In this document: piece by piece, positions 4,237-14,114 of the stretch
How positions within the stretch are numbered: the stretch's first letter is position 1
How the letters are laid out: every line of letters starts with the position of its first letter
From: Escherichia coli
GTDB taxonomy: Bacteria; Pseudomonadota; Gammaproteobacteria; Enterobacterales; Enterobacteriaceae
Assembly: GCF_044324785.1 (NCBI RefSeq)
Contig: NZ_CP172127.1
Reading direction: 5' to 3' (one strand)
DNA length: 64,000 bases
The notes under the pieces: model-generated
Databases searched by the model: none
What the model saw: only the letters and a program-made list of their open reading frames with translations
What the model was told of the DNA's origin: nothing
Translations under genes and position numbers: made by a program

Positions 4237-5922
4237 TTGAAGAAGGTTTGGCTTAACCGTTATCCCGCGGACGTTCCGACGGAGATCAACCCTGACCGTT
4301 ATCAATCTCTGGTAGATATGTTTGAGCAGTCGGTCGCGCGCTACGCCGATCAACCCGCGTTTGTGAATATGGGGGAGGTGATGACCTTCCGCAAACTGGA
4401 AGAACGCAGTCGCGCGTTTGCCGCTTATTTGCAACAAGGGTTGGGACTGAAGAAAGGCGATCGCGTTGCGTTGATGATGCCTAATTTATTGCAATATCCG
4501 GTGGCGCTGTTTGGCATTTTGCGTGCCGGGATGATTGTCGTAAACGTTAACCCGTTGTATACCCCGCGTGAACTTGAGCATCAGCTTAACGATAGCGGCG
4601 CATCGGCGATTGTTATCGTGTCTAACTTTGCCCACACTCTGGAAAAAGTGGTTGATAAAACCGCCGTTCAGCACGTAATTCTGACCCGTATGGGCGATCA
4701 GCTATCTACGGCAAAAGGCACGGTAGTCAATTTCGTTGTTAAATACATCAAGCGTCTGGTGCCGAAATACCATCTGCCAGATGCCATTTCATTTCGTAGC
4801 GCCCTGCACAACGGCTACCGGATGCAGTACGTCAAACCCGAACTGGTGCCGGAAGATTTAGCTTTCCTGCAATACACCGGCGGTACCACTGGTGTGGCGA
4901 AAGGCGCGATGCTGACTCACCGCAATATGCTGGCGAACCTGGAACAGGTTAACGCGACCTATGGTCCGCTGTTGCATCCGGGCAAAGAGCTGGTGGTGAC
5001 GGCGCTGCCGCTGTATCACATTTTTGCACTGACCATTAACTGCCTGCTGTTTATCGAACTGGGTGGGCAGAACCTGCTTATCACTAATCCGCGCGATATT
5101 CCAGGGTTGGTAAAAGAGTTAGCGAAATATCCGTTTACCGCTATCACTGGCGTTAACACCTTGTTCAATGCGTTGCTGAACAATAAAGAGTTCCAGCAGC
5201 TGGATTTCTCCAGTCTGCATCTTTCCGCAGGCGGAGGGATGCCTGTTCAGCAAGTGGTGGCAGAACGTTGGGTGAAACTGACTGGACAGTATCTGCTGGA
5301 AGGTTATGGCCTGACCGAGTGTGCGCCGCTGGTCAGCGTTAACCCGTATGATATTGATTATCATAGTGGTAGCATCGGTTTGCCGGTGCCATCGACGGAA
5401 GCCAAACTGGTGGATGACGACGACAACGAAGTACCACCGGGTCAACCGGGTGAGCTTTGTGTCAAAGGACCGCAGGTGATGCTGGGTTACTGGCAGCGTC
5501 CGGATGCTACCGATGAAATCATCAAAAATGGCTGGTTACACACCGGCGACATCGCGGTGATGGATGAAGAAGGATTCCTGCGCATTGTCGATCGTAAAAA
5601 AGACATGATTCTGGTTTCCGGTTTTAACGTCTATCCCAACGAGATTGAAGATGTCGTCATGCAGCATCCTGGCGTACAGGAAGTCGCGGCTGTTGGCGTA
5701 CCTTCCGGCTCCAGTGGTGAAGCGGTGAAAATCTTCGTAGTGAAAAAAGATCCATCGCTTACCGAAGAGTCACTGGTGACTTTTTGCCGCCGTCAGCTCA
5801 CGGGCTACAAAGTACCGAAGCTGGTGGAGTTTCGTGATGAGTTACCGAAATCTAACGTCGGAAAAATTTTGCGACGAGAATTACGTGACGAAGCGCGCGG
5901 CAAAGTGGACAATAAAGCCTGA
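4237..5922 (+). CDS. fadD: long-chain fatty-acid-CoA ligase FadD
   Basis: AMP-binding signature [12 protein letters not shown]; conserved N-terminus [14 protein letters not shown] starts at TTG 4237 after a GAGGTG RBS; track ORF extends upstream to ATG 4171. Confidence 0.9.
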
Positions 5923-5941
5923 GCGTTAAGTCAGTCGTCAG

Positions 5942-5967
5942 ACGCCGGTTAATCCGGCGTTTTTTTT
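5942..5967 (+). terminator. intrinsic terminator of fadD
   Basis: ACGCCGG-TTAAT-CCGGCGT stem-loop followed by T8, 20 bp after the fadD stop. Confidence 0.8.
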
Positions 5968-5991
5968 GACGCCCACTAAAGAGAATACAAT

Positions 5992-7119
5992 TTGAATTAC
6001 CAAATGATTACCACGGACGATGCGCTGGCTTCTTTGTGTGAAGCCGTCCGTGCCTTTCCGGCGATAGCCCTGGATACTGAATTTGTTCGTACGCGCACCT
6101 ATTACCCGCAACTGGGTCTAATTCAACTTTTTGATGGTGAGCATCTGGCGCTAATTGATCCTCTCGGGATCTCCGACTGGTCACCGCTGAAAGCGATCCT
6201 GCGCGATCCGTCCATCACAAAATTTCTCCATGCGGGCAGTGAAGATCTGGAAGTGTTCCTCAATGTCTTTGGCGAATTACCACAACCCTTGATTGACACG
6301 CAAATCCTTGCTGCCTTCTGCGGACGCCCGATGTCATGGGGTTTCGCTTCCATGGTGGAAGAGTATTCCGGCGTTACGCTGGACAAGAGTGAATCGCGCA
6401 CCGACTGGCTGGCCAGACCGCTGACCGAACGTCAGTGTGAATACGCAGCGGCGGATGTCTGGTATCTGTTACCGATCACCGCAAAGCTTATGGTAGAAAC
6501 GGAGGCCTCCGGCTGGCTACCTGCGGCGCTGGATGAATGCCGCCTGATGCAAATGCGTCGTCAGGAAGTCGTTGCACCGGAAGATGCCTGGCGTGATATT
6601 ACCAATGCCTGGCAGTTACGCACACGCCAACTGGCCTGTCTGCAACTGTTAGCCGACTGGCGACTGCGCAAGGCGCGGGAGCGCGATCTGGCGGTGAACT
6701 TTGTCGTGCGTGAAGAGCATTTGTGGTCGGTAGCGCGTTATATGCCGGGAAGTTTAGGCGAACTGGACAGCCTGGGCTTATCCGGTAGCGAAATCCGCTT
6801 TCACGGTAAAACGCTGCTGGCGCTGGTGGAAAAAGCGCAGACATTGCCGGAAGAGGCCTTACCGCAGCCGATGCTTAACCTGATGGACATGCCGGGTTAT
6901 CGTAAAGCGTTTAAAGCGATTAAGTCGTTGATTACTGACGTGAGCGAAACGCACAAGATCAGCGCCGAATTGCTGGCATCGCGTCGGCAAATCAACCAAC
7001 TGCTGAACTGGCACTGGAAACTGAAACCGCAGAACAATTTGCCGGAGCTGATTTCCGGCTGGCGTGGTGAGCTGATGGCGGAAGCATTACACAATTTATT
7101 GCAGGAATATCCGCAGTAA
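5992..7119 (+). CDS. rnd: ribonuclease D
   Basis: 375-aa ORF MNYQMITTDDALASL starting at TTG 5992 (non-ATG start is established for rnd). Confidence 0.9.
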   Translation: MNYQMITTDDALASLCEAVRAFPAIALDTEFVRTRTYYPQLGLIQLFDGEHLALIDPLGISDWSPLKAILRDPSITKFLHAGSEDLEVFLNVFGELPQPLIDTQILAAFCGRPMSWGFASMVEEYSGVTLDKSESRTDWLARPLTERQCEYAAADVWYLLPITAKLMVETEASGWLPAALDECRLMQMRRQEVVAPEDAWRDITNAWQLRTRQLACLQLLADWRLRKARERDLAVNFVVREEHLWSVARYMPGSLGELDSLGLSGSEIRFHGKTLLALVEKAQTLPEEALPQPMLNLMDMPGYRKAFKAIKSLITDVSETHKISAELLASRRQINQLLNWHWKLKPQNNLPELISGWRGELMAEALHNLLQEYPQ

Positions 7120-7125
7120 AATCTT

Positions 7126-7168
7126 CCGAAGCCGGACTGGGCGCGCTCAGCGCCACATCCGGCTTCGG
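7126..7168. terminator. long palindromic hairpin between convergent rnd and yeaX
   Basis: CCGAAGCCGGA...TCCGGCTTCGG 11-bp stem with an inner GGCGC/GCGCC stem; lies between the two stop codons. Confidence 0.5.
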
Positions 7169-7172
7169 CAAA

Positions 7173-8138
7173 CTACAAATCCAACACCAGGCGTTTACCC
7201 TTCGCGCGCGAACAACAGATCAACATACTTTGCTGGCTGGCACGCTCTTCATCGCTAAAATACTGATCCCGATGGTCAGCTTCACCTTCCAGTATTGCCG
7301 TTTCGCAGGTTCCGCATACCCCTTCACGACATAAACATTCCACTTTCGCTGCTTTATTATTTTCAATAACCTGCAAAATAGTCATCTCTTCCGGCACCAC
7401 ATACTCTTTACCGGAACGGGCAAGCACCAGGGTAAATGCATCGCCGGTTTTGTCTTCAATCGCAAATTGTTCAAAGTGCAGCGTATCGGCGGCGATGTCC
7501 AGACGCGCAGCTTCACTTCTTACCGCCTCATTTAGCGCTTCGGGGCCACAGGTATAAACATGTGTGCCAGGTTCGATATCCGCCAATAATCGCGCTAATT
7601 CCAGTCGTGTTCCGGTTGATGAATGATGCAAATGGACTTTCTCAGCCTGCGGATGCTGGACTAGCTCATCACGAAATGCGCAACTTTCTGGATTTCGTGA
7701 GCAGTAATGTAACTGCCAGTCGACGTCGCTGTATTGCATCTCTGCCAGGTGCGACAGGAAAGGGGTGATACCAATGCCTCCCGCGATAAACAGATGCTTT
7801 CTGGCCGAGGGAATTAGCGCAAACAGGTTATTAGGCGTTGAAATCGTTAACCGATCGCCCACTTTTACCTGCTGATGCAAAAAGCGGGAACCGCCGCGCG
7901 AGTTTTCCTCCAGCCGAACGGCAATCTGATAACAAGAGGTGTCATGCGGCGAACTCAGTAGTGAATACGCATTGCTGTACTCGTTATCACCATCGCTCAT
8001 CTGCACAATGACGTGACTTCCTCCGGTAAACGCAGGTAATGGTTTGCCATCGGTTGCCACCAGCGTGAAGCGTTTCACCTGTTCGGTAAGCGGTTCAATT
8101 TGGCTCACCTGTACTTCAAACATTTGATAGTCTGACAT
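7173..8138 (-). CDS. yeaX: reductase subunit of Rieske-type carnitine monooxygenase (CntB-like)
   Basis: 321 aa; C-terminal plant-type 2Fe-2S motif CREGVCGTCE. Confidence 0.85.
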   Translation of the reverse strand: MSDYQMFEVQVSQIEPLTEQVKRFTLVATDGKPLPAFTGGSHVIVQMSDGDNEYSNAYSLLSSPHDTSCYQIAVRLEENSRGGSRFLHQQVKVGDRLTISTPNNLFALIPSARKHLFIAGGIGITPFLSHLAEMQYSDVDWQLHYCSRNPESCAFRDELVQHPQAEKVHLHHSSTGTRLELARLLADIEPGTHVYTCGPEALNEAVRSEAARLDIAADTLHFEQFAIEDKTGDAFTLVLARSGKEYVVPEEMTILQVIENNKAAKVECLCREGVCGTCETAILEGEADHRDQYFSDEERASQQSMLICCSRAKGKRLVLDL

Positions 8139-8193
8139 TGCTGTACTCCATCAAAAATCAGCCCAGCGGCGGAAAATACCGCCGCCGATGTCA

Positions 8194-9318
8194 TTAGTCC
8201 TTAAACACCTGCGCCAGCAGATTATGGAAATGGGCGATACCATGTTCGGAAATTCCGCTACCGCTACTGTCGGCCATGATGCGCCCCTGACCACGATAGC
8301 CACGCGATTTCAGCCCTTTCTGTACGCTTTCAACCAGACGTAAATCTTCCGGACGGAACACATCGCGATACCACTCAATCAGCGATTTTTGCTCGTCGGT
8401 TAACTCTTCATTGGTGAAGTAAATATCGTAGTTTTGCAGGGTAGTTTCAGAATCCACCGGGAATTCATAAATGACCGTCATCATCCCTTTGATCGGGGTG
8501 ACGTTCAGCATCGTGCACGGCCACAGCCAGAAACCGTGGAATGCCGCATCCGTGCCCTCTTCGAATTTGAAAGACTGTTCGGACGGTTTGGCGAAACCGT
8601 ACTGCAGCGTCCAGTTACCGTGCATGGTGTGCCAGTAACGATCAACCTGAACGGAGTCGGAGAAACCTGGATGCGCCGGACCACAGTGATAGCACTCGAG
8701 ATAGTTATCGACAATGTTCTTCCAGTTGGCAGGCGTGCGGGTGGTAAAGCGGGCCGCCAGTTTCAGGTCGTGGACTTCCGGGCAGGCTTCCAGCACTTTC
8801 GCGCCCAGACCGGGTAACTGATCTTCTACGCTGGTGGCGTTGGGGTCCATGTTGATGAAGACGAATCCGGCATATTCTTCCAGACGCACCGGAACCAGTT
8901 GCGCTTTGTCGCTATCGAAATTGGCGACGTTTTCGCAGTTACGTGCATGGGCCAGATTGCCATCGAGTTTGAATGCCCATGCGTGATACGGGCAGGTAAT
9001 CACATTTTTTGCTTTTCCTTCACCGCTCAACAACTGATGACCACGGTGCGGACACACGTTATAGAACGCGCGCAAAACCTTATCACGACCGCGTACCAGC
9101 ACGATGCTTTCGCCAATGATCTCACGCGTCACATAATCATTGGCATTAGCCAGTTCGCTGCTGTGAGCGACGCAAATCCAGCTTTTGGCGAAGACGTTCT
9201 CTTTTTCGTGTTCAAAGGCGTTCTGATCGGTATAAAAACGGGCAGGAATGGTCCACGCCTCTTGCGGGTTAGCGCAAAAATTTTCGGGTAGTACAAAGTC
9301 AGGGCTCAGATTGCTCAT
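8194..9318 (-). CDS. yeaW: Rieske oxygenase subunit of carnitine monooxygenase (CntA-like)
   Basis: Rieske motif CPHRGHQ...CPYHAW; conserved start MSNLSPDFVLPE at ATG 9318; track ORF is upstream-extended. Confidence 0.85.
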   Translation of the reverse strand: MSNLSPDFVLPENFCANPQEAWTIPARFYTDQNAFEHEKENVFAKSWICVAHSSELANANDYVTREIIGESIVLVRGRDKVLRAFYNVCPHRGHQLLSGEGKAKNVITCPYHAWAFKLDGNLAHARNCENVANFDSDKAQLVPVRLEEYAGFVFINMDPNATSVEDQLPGLGAKVLEACPEVHDLKLAARFTTRTPANWKNIVDNYLECYHCGPAHPGFSDSVQVDRYWHTMHGNWTLQYGFAKPSEQSFKFEEGTDAAFHGFWLWPCTMLNVTPIKGMMTVIYEFPVDSETTLQNYDIYFTNEELTDEQKSLIEWYRDVFRPEDLRLVESVQKGLKSRGYRGQGRIMADSSGSGISEHGIAHFHNLLAQVFKD

Positions 9319-9349
9319 AGGGTTACCTTTATCGTTAGGATGATGGCGC

Positions 9350-10960
9350 TCAGTTGTCGCCTTTGAATACGGTTCCCGCAGGGAGCACTGGTGTTTTTTC
9401 CAGGGCTTCAACCGGTGTCTGCGGGAGATAATGTTCAACTTGATGAGCCGGAATGTCGGCGTAATCCTGTTTCAGCCAGCGAATAAATCCGCCGACTTTC
9501 ACCAGTAAAATGACGAGGAAGGGAAGGGCTGTGAGCACGACGGTGGTTTTCATCGTTTCCAGCGAAGCACCGGTAAACAAGATGGAAAGCGGGATCAGAG
9601 TGATCACCACGCACCAGAAAAGACGCAGCCCACGGTCAGGATCTTCACCTTCCTGGAGATTACGCGTACTGGTCGCCGCCATGGTGTAGGCCACCGCATC
9701 CATATGCGAGGCAAGGAAAATAATCATCACGCCCAGGTATGCGGCGAGGAACAATTTACCGGCTGGCAACGACATCAGAACTTGCTGCACAGCTGTTTCA
9801 CCGCCCAGTGTTTCCAGCACCTGTGGGACGTTGATTACGCCATTGATAAACTGATGAATGGCATAGCTTTCCATTACGCCGAAGAAGAACCAGCAACCGA
9901 CGGTGCTGCCGAGGATCAGTCCCCAGATAACTTCTTTAATCTTATGACCGCGGGAAACGCGGGTGACAAACATTGCTACGCCAGGCGTGTATGAGATCCA
10001 CCACAGCCAGTAGAAAACGGTCCAGTTGCGGGTAAATGAACCATCGCCAAGCGGATCGGTGAATAAGCTCATTTGCAGGAAGTTTTGCGTGGTCAGGCCG
10101 ATGGCATTGATGATGCTGTTGGTAATAAATTCGGTTGGACCGACAATCAGCACCAGTAATGGCAGCAGGAACGCGCCCCAGCCAACCATTTTGCTCAGAC
10201 GTTGCAAACCGTTGTTGATACCAATCCATGAGCTTAGGCAAAAAATGCCGCCGGAAAGCAGGATCACAAATGCCTGCACGGTGAAGTTATCGGGTAAACC
10301 GGTCAGTGCGGAAAGTCCACGAGTAAAGGTTGCTGCGGTGACAACAAGGGAAATAGTCAGTGCGCCGACAGTGGCGATCAGGAACATCAAATCAACCAGT
10401 TTTCCCCATGGGCCTTGCGGGCGAACGCCGGTAATCGCGGCAATAATGCCGGAAAGACTCAGACCTTTGTTTTTCCGCACATGAAAGTGATAAGCCATGA
10501 TTAATGAGGCCAGCGTATAAGTTGCCCAGGCGCTGATGCCCCAGTGGAAGAAGGAGTAAGGGACGCTAAATTCGAGTGCCTGTTGTGAACGCGGTGCGAT
10601 ATTTAATCCAGGCGTTTGATAATAATAGGCCCATTCAGCAACCCCCCAATAAAGCGTAGAAGAACCTAAACCGGCACAAATAAACATAAACAGCCAGGAG
10701 AGCGTGCTGTATTCCGGTTTTCCTTCGCCAAGACGAATATTGCCGTATTTACTGGTGGCTAAATAAATCACCAGTCCCATTGCCAGCAAAACCAATACCT
10801 GTACGGCGGAACCTAACGTACGCGTAACAAAAGTGTATATTGCGTTGGCCGCGTCGGCCGATTGTTGTGGGAAAAGGCTTAATGCAGCTGCGATGAAAAG
10901 AATGGCCACCAGGCTGATGCTTATCAGCGGCACATCTTTTTTCTTAACATTGCTCATCAT
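9350..10960 (-). CDS. yeaV: BCCT-family (betaine/carnitine/choline) transporter YeaV
   Basis: Multi-TM ORF directly upstream of yeaW on the same strand; exact start uncertain (track ORF 536 aa may be N-terminally extended). Confidence 0.8.
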
Positions 10961-11165
10961 GAGTCATCTCCTGGGCATAAAAGCCCGTCTCTGGCTTTTG
11001 CCAGTTGTAATTATTTGCAGGGTAATGAGTTGTATGTTGTGTTTAACAAATTGATTATTTGCATGTTACATAAATTAAACAATTAAGAATACGGAAAGCC
11101 ATAAAACACGAAACGGAAACAATAAAAGGTGAAATGACGCAGGTTATTAACTGCAAAGAACGAAT

Positions 11166-11190
11166 AAAAAAACCGCGTCAGTGACGCGGT
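11166..11190 (-). terminator. intrinsic terminator of dmlA
   Basis: On the minus strand ACCGCG-TCACTGA-CGCGGT followed by T7, 20 nt after the dmlA stop. Confidence 0.75.
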
Positions 11191-11210
11191 TCAAATAAAC
11201 TGGTTTGACC

Positions 11211-12296
11211 TTAACGCAAAATAATTTTGCAAATCGCGTCGGCAACCTGTGGCGTGGTGGCACTGCCTTTCATATCCGGTGTTTTCGGCCCGTGAGCAAT
11301 CACTTCTTCAATCGCTGCCAGAATACCGTTATGCGCTTGCTGGAAACGCTCATCGCCATTGCCGAGAAAATCGAGCATCATTGCACCGGCCCAAATTGTG
11401 GCAATAGGGTTAGCAATATTTTTCCCGTAGATATCCGGCGCGGAACCGTGAACAGGCTCGAAGAGCGACGGGAAAGTGCGTTCCGGATTCAGGTTGGCGG
11501 ATGGGGCAATGCCAATGGTGCCGGTGCAGGCCGGGCCAAGATCGGAAAGGATATCGCCAAACAAATTGGACGCCACCACCACATCGAAGCGTTCCGGCTG
11601 CATCACAAAACGCGCGCAGAGAATATCAATATGCTGCTTGTCCCAGCGGATCTCCGGGTAATTCTCGGCCATTGCTTCCACTCGCTCATCCCAGTACGGC
11701 ATGCTGATGGCTAAACCGTTTGATTTAGTGGCAGAGGTTAGCGTCTTACGTGGGCGGCTTTGCGCAAGTTCGAAGGCATAACGCAAAATGCGATCGACAC
11801 CACGACGCGTAAATACCGATTCCTGAATGACGACTTCATGCTCTGTACCTTCATTCACTCTACCGCCGAGCGAGGAATATTCGCCTTCGGTGTTTTCCCT
11901 GACCACGTAAAAATCGATGTCGCCAGGCTGTTTTCCCGCCAGCGGGCAGGGAACGCCAGGAAAGAGACGAACCGGGCGCAGGTTGACGTACTGGTCGAAT
12001 TCACGACGAAATTTCAGCAGCGAACCCCACAACGAAATATGGTCCGGAACGGTGTCCGGCCAGCCGACGGCACCAAAATAGATGGCGTCGAAACGGCTAA
12101 GTTGCTCATGCCAGTCGTCCGGCATCATTTTACCGTGATGGCTGTAATACTCGCAGCTCGCCCACTCCATTTGCTCAAAACTCAAGGCGAAGCCCCAGCG
12201 CTCAGCGGCAGCCTGTAACACGCGAATCCCTTCAGGAAGGACTTCTTTGCCAATCCCGTCTCCCGGGATCGCAGCAATACGCATCGTTTTCATCAT
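11211..12296 (-). CDS. dmlA: D-malate dehydrogenase (decarboxylating), isocitrate/isopropylmalate DH family
   Basis: 361-aa ORF MMKTMRIAAIPGDGIGKEV with the family N-terminal fold signature. Confidence 0.85.
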   Translation of the reverse strand: MMKTMRIAAIPGDGIGKEVLPEGIRVLQAAAERWGFALSFEQMEWASCEYYSHHGKMMPDDWHEQLSRFDAIYFGAVGWPDTVPDHISLWGSLLKFRREFDQYVNLRPVRLFPGVPCPLAGKQPGDIDFYVVRENTEGEYSSLGGRVNEGTEHEVVIQESVFTRRGVDRILRYAFELAQSRPRKTLTSATKSNGLAISMPYWDERVEAMAENYPEIRWDKQHIDILCARFVMQPERFDVVVASNLFGDILSDLGPACTGTIGIAPSANLNPERTFPSLFEPVHGSAPDIYGKNIANPIATIWAGAMMLDFLGNGDERFQQAHNGILAAIEEVIAHGPKTPDMKGSATTPQVADAICKIILR

Positions 12297-12398
12297 TGGG
12301 TTCTCACTTCCTGACCATCAAAATTGACAACATCACCATCCTATAATTGACTGAAAAGGAATTAATCCCCGTAACTGGTGAAACATAAAACACGAATC

Positions 12399-13322
12399 AT
12401 GAATAATTTACCGCTGCTGAACGATTTGCGCGTCTTTATGCTGGTGGCTCGCCGGGCTGGTTTTGCCGCCGTGGCGGAAGAACTGGGCGTTTCACCGGCG
12501 TTCGTCAGCAAGCGCATCGCCTTGCTGGAGCAAACGCTAAACGTGGTGTTGTTACACCGCACCACCCGCCGCGTCACCATTACCGAAGAAGGAGAGCGGA
12601 TTTATGAATGGGCGCAGCGGATTTTGCAGGATGTCGGTCAGATGATGGACGAACTTTCTGACGTGCGTCAGGTGCCACAGGGGATGCTGCGTATTATCAG
12701 CAGCTTTGGTTTTGGACGACAGGTGGTGGCTCCGGCGTTATCAGCGCTGGCGAAGGCGTATCCGCAACTGGAATTACGTTTTGATGTGGAAGACCGGCTG
12801 GTCGATTTGGTCAATGAAGGTGTCGATCTCGATATTCGCATTGGCGATGACATCGCCCCTAATTTAATCGCCCGCAAACTGGCGACCAATTACCGCATTC
12901 TCTGCGCGTCGCCGGAATTTATTGCGCAACATGGCACGCCGAAACATTTAACCGATCTTTCTGCATTGCCGTGCCTGGTCATTAAAGAGCGCGATCATCC
13001 TTTTGGTGTCTGGCAATTACGCAATAAAGAAGGCCACCATGCGATTAAAGTCACCGGCCCACTGTCGTCTAATCATGGAGAAATTGTCCATCAGTGGTGT
13101 CTCGATGGGCAGGGGATTGCTCTGCGTTCCTGGTGGGATGTTAGCGAAAACATTGCCAGTGGTCATTTAGTGCAAGTGCTACCGGAATATTACCAGCCAG
13201 CGAACGTCTGGGCCGTTTATGTTTCAAGGCTGGCGACGTCAGCGAAAGTGCGGATAACGGTAGAATTTTTACGCCAGTATTTTGCCGAGCACTACCCGAA
13301 TTTTTCACTGGAGCATGCCTGA
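12399..13322 (+). CDS. dmlR: LysR-type transcriptional regulator DmlR
   Basis: N-terminal HTH MNNLPLLNDLRVFMLVARRAGFAAVAEELGVSPAFVS; divergent from dmlA; track ORF trimmed to ATG 12399. Confidence 0.85.
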   Translation: MNNLPLLNDLRVFMLVARRAGFAAVAEELGVSPAFVSKRIALLEQTLNVVLLHRTTRRVTITEEGERIYEWAQRILQDVGQMMDELSDVRQVPQGMLRIISSFGFGRQVVAPALSALAKAYPQLELRFDVEDRLVDLVNEGVDLDIRIGDDIAPNLIARKLATNYRILCASPEFIAQHGTPKHLTDLSALPCLVIKERDHPFGVWQLRNKEGHHAIKVTGPLSSNHGEIVHQWCLDGQGIALRSWWDVSENIASGHLVQVLPEYYQPANVWAVYVSRLATSAKVRITVEFLRQYFAEHYPNFSLEHA

Positions 13323-13379: not shown

Positions 13380-14087
<708 letters not shown>

Positions 14088-14094
14088 TACTTTC

Positions 14095-14114
14095 AGCCCG
14101 CGTTGTCGCGGGCT
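14095..14114 (+). terminator. hairpin after leuE (terminator candidate)
   Basis: AGCCCGCG-TTGT-CGCGGGCT 8-bp GC stem 8 nt after the leuE stop; weak U-tract. Confidence 0.45.

What the first reader, a model, noticed from the sequence alone, without database searches (positions are those of the whole stretch)
8166..8185. GC-rich hairpin between yeaW and yeaX inside the presumed operon
GCGGCGG-AAAATA-CCGCCGC lies in the 55-nt spacer between the yeaW stop and the yeaX start. On the transcript it is followed by a short U-rich stretch, so it could act as a partial terminator or translational-coupling element that sets the oxygenase-to-reductase ratio.
Basis: seen in the sequence. Interest (0 to 1): 0.15.

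Follow-up and report, generated by a model that had tools for sequence, protein, structure and literature searches.

The report
Conserved mRNA hairpin upstream of yeaX
The GC-rich hairpin between the E. coli carnitine-monooxygenase genes yeaW and yeaX is a real, conserved mRNA stem-loop left over from the spacer that once followed a now-deleted dehydrogenase gene; it is most likely an ordinary operon-internal stability or attenuation element, not a new kind of regulator.

Summary
GCGGCGG-N6-CCGCCGC lies at 8166..8185 in the 55-nt yeaW-yeaX spacer, and the genes are on the minus strand. On the transcript it extends to 10 pairs (8188..8163, -19.5 kcal/mol, z = -4.0).

A 7-bp all-GC stem is not rare by itself: about 0.8 are expected per window and 2 were found. 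Comparison with relatives shows it is real:
- All 18 Escherichia, Citrobacter and related loci carry a stem-loop 18-25 nt upstream of the yeaX start.
- The stem sequences differ but the pairing is kept (89.7% of cells paired, against 33-49% when the partners are slid). Seven of 11 pairs carry compensatory changes.
- Between E. coli and E. albertii only 1 of 49 non-loop spacer bases differs, whereas flanking third-codon positions are only 60-67% identical.

New context: most relatives have a malic-semialdehyde dehydrogenase gene (msadh) between cntA and cntB. The E. coli spacer is the old msadh-cntB spacer. msadh was deleted independently in Escherichia and in the Citrobacter freundii complex, and the hairpin survived both deletions.

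As a terminator the E. coli version is poor, because the U5 run starts 6 nt after the stem. The best reading is an intercistronic decay barrier and/or a weak attenuator that lowers yeaX relative to the upstream cistrons. This is untested. It is ordinary in kind and of low interest.

The parts
8194..9318 (-). yeaW (cntA), the Rieske oxygenase subunit of carnitine monooxygenase. The stop codon TAA is at 8196..8194.
   Evidence: ORF list. RefSeq annotation of the 100%-identical strain N3.
8139..8193 (-). The 55-nt yeaW-yeaX spacer. It is homologous to the msadh-cntB spacer of Citrobacter loci that still carry msadh.
   Evidence: Escherichia reads 'TAA|TGACAT-hairpin-GGGCTGATTTTTGATGGAG'. Citrobacter R56 reads 'msadh TAA CGA TGACAG-hairpin-GGGCTGATTTTTAAGGGAG'.
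8163..8188 (-). The stem-loop: 5' arm 8188..8179 (UCGGCGGCGG), loop 8178..8173 (UAUUUU), 3' arm 8172..8163 (CCGCCGCUGG). G8186.U8165 and U8188.G8163 are wobble pairs.
   Evidence: -19.5 kcal/mol, z = -4.0. Covariation on alignment A2. G.U pairs favour the sense strand: 89.7% paired against 81.7% on the antisense strand.
8153..8157 (-). A U5 run between the stem and the SD. It is kept as U5-U6 in all 18 Escherichia and Citrobacter-group loci. GA|UUU (8159..8155) fits the RNase E motif RN|WUU.
   Evidence: The motif is as quoted in PMC5927463. Cleavage here is inferred, not shown.
8146..8149 (-). The yeaX Shine-Dalgarno sequence GGAG, 7 nt upstream of the ATG. It is invariant in alignment A2.
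7173..8138 (-). yeaX (cntB), the reductase subunit. The ATG is at 8138..8136.

Best explanation
The inverted repeat encodes a stable stem-loop in the sense yeaVWX mRNA, just upstream of the yeaX ribosome-binding site. It is an inherited element. In the ancestral carnitine operon (bcct-cntA-msadh-cntB) it sat between the malic-semialdehyde dehydrogenase gene and the reductase gene. Escherichia lost msadh by a clean deletion, which placed the element 6 nt after the yeaW stop.

The most likely mechanism is an intercistronic boundary that makes yeaX mRNA less abundant than the upstream cistrons. RNase E would cut in the unstructured GA|UUUUU tract downstream of the stem. The stem-loop would then block 3'-to-5' exonucleases and preserve the upstream segment, while the yeaX fragment, left with a short unstructured monophosphorylated leader, decays faster. 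A minor share of RNA polymerase may also terminate at the stem plus U5.

Shown: the structure, its strand, its conservation and covariation, and its origin.
Inferred: the RNase E cut, the exonuclease block, any termination, and the effect on the YeaW:YeaX ratio.
For: Structure:
- Sense RNA folds at -19.5 kcal/mol, z = -4.0.
- A stem-loop is present in 18 of 18 Escherichia, Citrobacter and RIT691 loci at a fixed 18-25 nt from the yeaX ATG, with dG of -15 to -21 kcal/mol.
- RNAalifold recovers the helix on its own.
- For the 11-pair helix, 89.7% of cells are paired against 33-49% when the partners are slid. Seven pairs carry double changes. 0 of 500 shuffles reach the observed covariation score.
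- 17 G.U cells on the sense strand would be A.C mismatches on the other strand.

Constraint:
- E. coli against E. albertii: 1 of 49 non-loop spacer bases differs (a G.U to G-C change), 3 of 6 loop bases differ, and flanking third-codon positions are 60-67% identical.
- The probability of at most 1 change in 49 sites at a rate of 0.33 is 7.5e-8.
- 3772 of 4371 E. coli genomes are identical over 71 nt.
- Two of the three variants sampled keep pairing: G.U to G-C in O157, and G.U to A-U in strain 2021CK-00607.

Origin:
- An msadh-like ORF of 477-514 aa as called (482-490 in most loci) lies between cntA and cntB in most of the 80 loci.
- The two deletion junctions differ, and both retain the hairpin.

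Mechanism class:
- Protective 3' stem-loops and RN|WUU cleavage shape about 12% of E. coli operons and are usually conserved (PMC5927463).
- Analogous stable hairpins precede cntB in Pseudomonas, Paraburkholderia and many Acinetobacter.
- Weak hint: O157 microarray tables list yeaV and yeaW as induced, but not yeaX (PMC2241611).
Against: - There is no transcript-end, half-life or protein-ratio measurement for this spacer. Adams et al. 2021 list no 3' end there, but the operon is poorly expressed in laboratory media and the stored files may be truncated.
- The direction of the effect is not established. The same stem could instead cap and stabilise the yeaX fragment.
- Xenorhabdus and several other lineages have spacers of 0-20 nt with no hairpin upstream of cntB, so the enzyme system does not require the element.
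- One E. coli strain (O139:H1 P15-25) carries an A.C mismatch in the middle of the stem.
- Covariation in perfect palindromes can in principle arise from template-switch correction rather than selection.
Confidence: 0.45

Rival explanations
1. Leaky intrinsic (Rho-independent) terminator or attenuator. A fraction of RNA polymerases release the transcript at the stem plus U5, so fewer full-length yeaVWX transcripts are made.
For: - The consensus scan ranks it top by number of pairs among 16 terminator-like sites in 7.5 kb, alongside the real dmlA and fadD/sroD terminators.
- The U5-U6 run is conserved in all 18 loci.
- In two orthologs the U-run abuts the stem as in canonical terminators: C. 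braakii copy b...CGCCGGGA|UUUUUA, and RIT691...GCCGGG|UUCUUUUUG.
- Paraburkholderia loci have canonical stem plus U5-6 upstream of cntB.
Against: - In E. coli the tail after the 10-bp stem is GCUGAUUUUU. The first 8 tail bases include only 3 U and 3 G/C, so the RNA:DNA hybrid at the release point would be strong (termination rules from general knowledge).
- The scan found 16 sites against 9.5 +/- 2.9 in shuffles, so a hit on its own is weak evidence.
- The stem-to-U distance varies from 0 to 6 nt among orthologs, which is not expected if termination efficiency were the selected trait.
- There is no downstream promoter space, so strong termination would abolish the reductase the enzyme needs.
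- No 3' end was found in the available data.
Confidence: 0.22
2. A 5' stabiliser or RBS insulator for yeaX, of the papBA type. Cleavage upstream of the stem would leave yeaX mRNA with a 5' stem-loop that protects it from RNase E. The stem would also keep the A/U-rich RBS region free of upstream pairing, raising rather than lowering reductase expression.
For: - The distance from stem to ATG is constant (18-25 nt), whereas the distance from the upstream stop varies from 6 to 21 nt.
- The U-tract plus SD region is invariant.
- papBA-like 5' structures were reported downstream of RNase E sites in 7 of 10 operons (PMC5927463).
Against: - Only 5-6 nt separate the yeaW stop from the stem, and they contain no clear RN|WUU site.
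- The constant distance to the ATG may simply reflect the geometry of the deletions, which lay upstream.
- No 5'-end data are available.
Confidence: 0.15
3. A relic with no current function in E. coli. The palindrome is a leftover msadh terminator or stabiliser, kept by short divergence time or by template-switch self-correction of quasi-palindromes.
For: - It is demonstrably inherited from the msadh-cntB spacer.
- E. coli strains do not grow on carnitine, and no monooxygenase activity was detected in BL21 grown in complex medium (PMC11353897).
- About 1,050 of 5,426 E. coli genomes lack the locus.
- One strain carries a stem mismatch.
Against: - There is 1 change in 49 non-loop spacer bases against about 35% divergence at flanking third-codon positions between E. 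coli and E. albertii, while the loop changes freely.
- Stems differ between Citrobacter lineages but always pair, including through G.U intermediates, which self-correction at the DNA level would not favour.
Confidence: 0.13
4. A DNA-level element: a palindromic binding site for a regulator, or a cruciform.
For: A perfect 7-bp inverted repeat with a 6-bp spacer resembles a dimer operator.
Against: - The stem sequence is not conserved between lineages, only the complementarity. Operators conserve sequence.
- Wobble pairs fit RNA on the sense strand.
- The site lies inside an operon, far from the promoter region upstream of yeaV.
Confidence: 0.03

Closest known systems
Protective intercistronic 3' stem-loops that cause differential decay within operons (malE-malF REP hairpins; the structures mapped by Dar & Sorek 2018, PMC5927463)
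   Same: - A stable GC-rich stem-loop lies at the boundary between an upstream and a downstream cistron of one transcript.
- An unstructured RN|WUU-type tract lies next to it.
- The structure is conserved across related genera.
   Different: - It is not a REP/BIME copy. It is single-copy with an unrelated sequence.
- Most of the Dar & Sorek structures lie inside the downstream ORF, whereas this one is in the spacer.
- No 3'-end or half-life data exist for this operon.
Partial intrinsic terminators inside operons
   Same: A GC-rich hairpin downstream of a stop codon, followed by a U-run, with the downstream gene dependent on read-through.
   Different: - The U-run is displaced 6 nt from the stem in E. 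coli.
- It abuts the stem only in two orthologs.
- Termination has not been measured.
papBA-type 5' stem-loop stabilisers
   Same: A hairpin in an intercistronic region immediately upstream of the RBS of the downstream gene.
   Different: No RNase E site is evident in the 5-6 nt between the stop codon and the stem, and the direction of the effect is unknown.
The carnitine degradation operon of Acinetobacter baumannii (carR, mdh, bcct, hyd, cntA, msadh, cntB; PMC11353897)
   Same: The E. coli dmlR-dmlA-yeaV-yeaW-yeaX cluster is the orthologous cluster. The absence of msadh in E. coli is already published.
   Different: Added here: the E. coli yeaW-yeaX spacer is the surviving msadh-cntB spacer. 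msadh was lost twice, with different junctions, in Escherichia and in the C. freundii complex. The hairpins of the A. baumannii group lie after cntA rather than before cntB.

Membership tests
Intrinsic (Rho-independent) terminator | GC-rich stem-loop of about 5-12 bp with a short loop | tested here: met
   10 pairs (8 G-C, 2 G.U), 6-nt loop, -19.5 kcal/mol.
Intrinsic (Rho-independent) terminator | A U-tract starting within 0-2 nt of the 3' base of the stem | tested here: not met
   The E. coli tail is GCUGAUUUUU. U5 starts at +6, and 3 of the first 8 bases are U. The feature is met only in orthologs L016 and L018.
Intrinsic (Rho-independent) terminator | Transcript 3' ends mapped in the U-tract, or termination shown in vitro | not testable with these tools
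   No entry for the spacer in the held supplement of Adams et al. 2021. Other Term-seq supplements are not held.
Protective 3' stem-loop / differential operon decay | A stable RNA structure at the 3' boundary of the upstream segment, conserved in related species | tested here: met
Protective 3' stem-loop / differential operon decay | Different steady-state level and half-life of the upstream and downstream cistrons, with processed 3' ends at the base of the stem | not testable with these tools
   The only hint is O157 microarray tables that list yeaV and yeaW but not yeaX.
REP/BIME repetitive extragenic palindromes | A multi-copy family with a shared consensus sequence | tested here: not met
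   One match in the 64-kb window at up to 3 mismatches. Median of one place per genome for the 71-nt query.
Translational coupling element (termination-reinitiation or SD unmasking) | Stop and start codons overlapping or close together, or the SD/start sequestered in a structure that upstream translation opens | tested here: not met
   The gap is 55 nt. The SD lies 13 nt (8162..8150) 3' of the stem. The SD-containing fold has z = -0.72. The stem begins 6 nt or more past the stop in every locus.
Any curated Rfam family | A covariance-model match | tested here: not met
   cmscan of 5500..13000 at E <= 5 finds only sroD at 5881..5966 and chance hits, and nothing in the spacer.

The most novel reading that the evidence does not exclude
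The stem-loop plus U5 is a conditional attenuator whose read-through or cleavage is modulated, for example by temperature, by a protein or sRNA, or by translation of the upstream cistron. It would throttle the reductase relative to the oxygenase and limit uncoupled NADH oxidation, and it would have been kept for that reason through two independent losses of msadh.
Probability: 0.06. Interest if true: 0.4.

Novelty: new member of a known kind. Interest (0 to 1): 0.2.

Why it matters
yeaWX (cntAB) produces trimethylamine from carnitine and is studied as a gut-microbiome cardiovascular risk factor. Whether a cntA-carrying E. coli makes active enzyme depends on both subunits being expressed. A conserved post-transcriptional boundary in front of the reductase gene would be one determinant of that. 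It should also be kept in mind when the two genes are cloned or quantified separately.

The evolutionary result is a tidy example of a regulatory RNA structure outliving the gene it used to follow: the spacer is the remnant of the msadh-cntB junction, retained after two independent deletions.

None of this changes current understanding of operon regulation. The element belongs to a common and well-described class.

Tried and rejected
1. Rfam scan of 7.5 kb around the site: no family in the spacer.
2. Search for further copies in the window at up to 3 mismatches: none, so it is not a repeat family.
3. Experimental 3' ends:
   - Dar & Sorek 2018 supplements have no yeaV/W/X entry.
   - The Adams 2021 supplement has only a 3' end antisense to yeaX at MG1655 1886672(-), probably the rnd 3' UTR.
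   - No supplements are held for PMC6061677, PMC9023263, PMC4161252 or PMC8848933.
4. PMC9508527 was searched for operon or subunit-ratio information: nothing relevant.
5. A second helix (CUGAU/GUCAG) enclosing the yeaX SD and AUG was proposed by RNAalifold, with one covarying pair at the wobble base of codon 2. I set it aside. It has only 5 pairs, 5 of 16 sequences break it, the covariation amounts to one or two events, and the fold is no better than shuffles (z = -0.72).
6. The apparent breakpoint at the hairpin in a DH5alpha record turned out to be a deletion between AGTACAGCAATG direct repeats in a record with several pseudogenes. It is not informative for function.
7. The statistical rarity of the repeat alone: rejected as an argument, because 0.8 all-GC 7-bp stems are expected per window.
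8. The protein-homology, structure-prediction and metagenome tools were not needed for this question.

Full report
**1. What is in the sequence**

The window is E. coli; a 351-nt query around the site is 100% identical to strain N3. The genes are on the minus strand:
- yeaV: 9350..10960
- yeaW: 8194..9318
- yeaX: 7173..8138
- rnd is convergent on the plus strand, 5992..7119.

The plus strand at 8166..8185 reads GCGGCGG-AAAATA-CCGCCGC, exactly as reported. The spacer between the yeaW stop (TAA, 8196..8194) and the yeaX ATG (8138..8136) is 55 nt.

The transcript reads UAA-UGACA-UCGGCGGCGG-UAUUUU-CCGCCGCUGG-GCUGA-UUUUU-GAU-GGAG-UACAGCA-AUG. With one more G-C pair and two G.U pairs the stem reaches 10 pairs, 8188..8163.
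- The sense RNA folds at -19.5 kcal/mol, z = -4.0, with 0 of 200 shuffles as good.
- The antisense RNA reaches only -14.9 kcal/mol, because the wobble pairs become A.C mismatches.

**2. Is it more than chance?**

Not on the repeat alone. The 64-kb window has 62 perfect 7-bp stems with loops of 3-8 nt (28 +/- 7 expected), and 2 that are all-G/C (0.8 +/- 0.9 expected). The other all-GC stem, at 14096..14113, sits 9 nt after the stop of the ORF annotated as leuE.

The sequence is unique in the window, has no Rfam match and is unannotated in MG1655. The case for a real element therefore rests on comparison with relatives.

**3. Comparative evidence**

A scan of one genome per species with YeaW returned 80 loci. 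I located the cntA stop and the cntB start in each.

All Escherichia species keep the 55-nt spacer and the stem. The stems are:
- E. coli: CGGCGGCGG...CCGCCGCUG
- Escherichia sp. E1V33 and E. whittamii: ...CCGUCGCCG
- E. albertii: ...CCGCCGCCG

Citrobacter and a related Enterobacteriaceae isolate (RIT691) have a stem-loop at the same place, 18-25 nt before the ATG, with dG of -15 to -21 kcal/mol. Their arm sequences are quite different, for example CCCGGCGCUG/CAGCGUCGGG, UCCGGCGCG/CGCGCCGGA and CCCGGUAAG/CUUGCCGGG.

On a 16-sequence alignment:
- RNAalifold predicts the helix without guidance.
- For an 11-pair helix, 89.7% of cells are paired, against 33-49% when the 3' partners are slid by 1-3 columns.
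- Seven pairs carry changes on both sides.
- None of 500 shuffles reaches the observed covariation score.
- 17 cells are G.U on the sense strand, against 3 on the antisense strand. The structure is therefore an RNA feature of the yeaWX transcript, not a DNA or antisense feature.

**4. Constraint**

Between E. coli and E. albertii, third-codon positions of yeaW and yeaX are only 60-67% identical. Yet the spacer has 4 differences in 55 nt. Three are in the 6-nt loop, and the fourth turns the G.U pair into G-C. At a neutral rate of 0.33, one change or fewer in 49 non-loop sites has a probability of 7.5e-8.

Within E. coli, 3772 of 4371 genomes with the locus are identical over 71 nt. Of the three variants I fetched:
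- O157:H7 has U to C (G.U to G-C).
- A urinary isolate has G to A (G.U to A-U).
- One O139:H1 strain has a disruptive A.C mismatch in the stem.

Stem, U-tract and SD are constrained. The loop is free.

**5. Origin**

In most loci an ORF of about 1.45 kb separates cntA from cntB. This holds for several Citrobacter, Xenorhabdus, Acinetobacter, Pseudomonas, Paraburkholderia and Neisseriaceae. The ORF encodes 477-514 aa as called (482-490 in most loci).

It belongs to the succinate-semialdehyde dehydrogenase subfamily (TIGR01780, 702 bits against a cut-off of 646). It corresponds to the malic semialdehyde dehydrogenase (msadh) of the A. baumannii carnitine operon. The absence of msadh from the E. 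coli cluster is already published (PMC11353897 section 3.13).

What I add is the junction analysis.
- In msadh-bearing Citrobacter the hairpin lies between msadh and cntB: '...CAGGGGCTG TAA CGA TGACAG GTCCCGGCGCTG...CAGCGTCGGGCTGATTTTTAAGGGAG...ATG'.
- The Escherichia spacer starts at the matching TGACA right after the yeaW stop. The deletion therefore removed the cntA-msadh spacer, all of msadh, and 3 nt beyond its stop.
- The C. freundii-complex loci without msadh (C. portucalensis, C. braakii copy a, C. youngae ATCC 29220, On2M) have a different junction: yeaW TAA | CCAG(A/G)GGCTG TAA CGACAG... This still contains the last three codons and the stop of msadh.

msadh was therefore lost at least twice, and the hairpin, U-tract and SD module survived each time. 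The element did not arise to separate oxygenase from reductase. It is the upstream module of the reductase gene.

**6. How it probably works**

There is no room for a promoter between the stem and the ATG, so yeaX must be expressed from read-through transcripts.

As an intrinsic terminator the E. coli version is poor. After the 10-bp stem come GCUGA and only then U5, so 3 of the first 8 tail bases are U. The genuine dmlA and fadD/sroD terminators in the same scan have T-runs that abut the stem. That scan also finds 16 sites where 9.5 +/- 2.9 are expected by chance.

Two orthologs do have a U-run that abuts the stem (C. braakii copy b and RIT691), and Paraburkholderia has canonical stem-plus-U5-6 hairpins before cntB. 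An ancestral terminator-like function, or some residual termination, is therefore plausible. The stem-to-U distance varies from 0 to 6 nt while the stem and the U5 are both kept. This fits better with a role for the two parts separately.

My preferred model follows the documented class of differential operon decay (PMC5927463):
- The tract GA|UUUUU matches the RNase E motif RN|WUU.
- Cleavage there would leave the upstream cistrons ending in a strong 3' stem-loop that blocks exonucleases.
- The yeaX fragment would carry a short unstructured 5'-monophosphate leader and decay faster.
- The net effect is less reductase message than oxygenase message.

This is inference; no step has been measured. 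The only expression hint is that O157 microarray tables list yeaV (2.06-fold) and yeaW (2.43-fold) as induced at growth transitions but not yeaX (PMC2241611). That is weak.

**7. Rival readings**

1. Leaky terminator, as above (0.22).
2. A papBA-like 5' cap or RBS insulator that stabilises yeaX (0.15). The constant distance to the ATG supports it. Against it, there is almost no room and no clear cleavage motif between the stop and the stem.
3. A functionless relic (0.13). The origin and the weak physiology of the E. coli operon support it: no growth on carnitine, and no detectable monooxygenase activity in BL21 grown in complex medium. The constraint contradicts it.
4. A DNA operator (0.03). 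It is contradicted by conservation of the structure but not the sequence, and by the wobble pairs.

- The gap is 55 nt.
- The SD is outside the stem.
- The SD-enclosing alternative fold is no better than shuffles.
- The stem starts 6 nt or more past the upstream stop in every locus. That is just outside a terminating ribosome (general knowledge of the ribosome footprint), so upstream translation would not open it.

**8. Comparison with the known, and verdict**

This is an unannotated but ordinary member of the class of conserved intercistronic stem-loops, which act as protective structures or partial terminators.
- It is not a REP element or an Rfam family.
- It is not a canonical terminator in E. 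coli, because the U-tract adjacency test fails.
- Novelty: a new member of a known kind, with a small evolutionary twist as a relic of the msadh-cntB spacer.
- Interest is low (0.2).

Noticed in passing
L007-L011, L016-L018 and most of L020-L082 (between cntA and cntB); absent at window 8139..8193: An msadh-like ORF of 477-514 aa as called (482-490 in most loci) lies between cntA and cntB in most taxa. Escherichia and the C. freundii complex lost it by two different deletions (junctions TAA|TGACA and TAA|CCAGGGGCTGTAA).
   Followed up: yes
L013 and L016 (Citrobacter braakii ATCC 51113): One genome carries two cntA-cntB loci, one with msadh and one without. Their CntA proteins are 92% and 88% identical to the E. 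coli YeaW query.
   Followed up: no
L086:1400-1560 (E. coli SL124, NZ_CM194971.1): An IS1 element replaces yeaV-yeaW. Its terminal repeat (...GGCAGCATTACC) directly abuts the 5' base of the hairpin (CGGCGGCGG...), so yeaX and its upstream module are left behind alone.
   Followed up: partly
L001:3090-3400 (E. coli DH5alpha NZ_CP045741.1); window about 8148..8137 and about 7970..7959: This record lacks the start of yeaX. The break lies between two copies of the 12-nt direct repeat AGTACAGCAATG, and yeaV and yeaX are flagged as pseudogenes. It may be a real deletion or an assembly error.
   Followed up: partly
E. coli genome collection: About 1,050 of 5,426 complete E. coli genomes have no match to the yeaW-yeaX junction, so the locus is absent from, or very divergent in, a sizeable part of the species.
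   Followed up: no
window 8157..8161 with 8132..8136 (minus strand): RNAalifold proposes a 5-bp helix CUGAU/GUCAG that encloses the yeaX SD and AUG. One A-U to U-A swap involves the wobble base of codon 2. Five of 16 sequences break it, and the fold is no better than shuffles.
   Followed up: partly
window 14096..14113 (+): The only other all-G/C 7-bp hairpin in the window (GCCCGCG-TTGT-CGCGGGC) sits 9 nt after the stop of the 212-aa ORF 13449..14087, annotated as leuE in strain N3, and is followed by TTCCCATCTG.
   Followed up: partly
window 11170..11192 (-) and 5940..5962 (+): Two canonical terminators. One follows dmlA, upstream of yeaV, which implies that yeaVWX has its own promoter in the 250-nt gap. 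The other is the fadD terminator, which coincides with the sroD sRNA (Rfam RF00370 at 5881..5966, 115 bits).
   Followed up: no
MG1655 1886672 (-), inside yeaX (about window 7311): A supplement of Adams et al. 2021 lists a 3' end antisense to yeaX. It probably marks the convergent rnd transcript running about 190 nt into yeaX.
   Followed up: no
L028-L036 and L050-L065 (Acinetobacter), L040-L076 (Pseudomonas, Paraburkholderia): Stable hairpins are also common after cntA and/or before cntB in these distant operons. Xenorhabdus and some others have spacers of 0-20 nt with none.
   Followed up: partly
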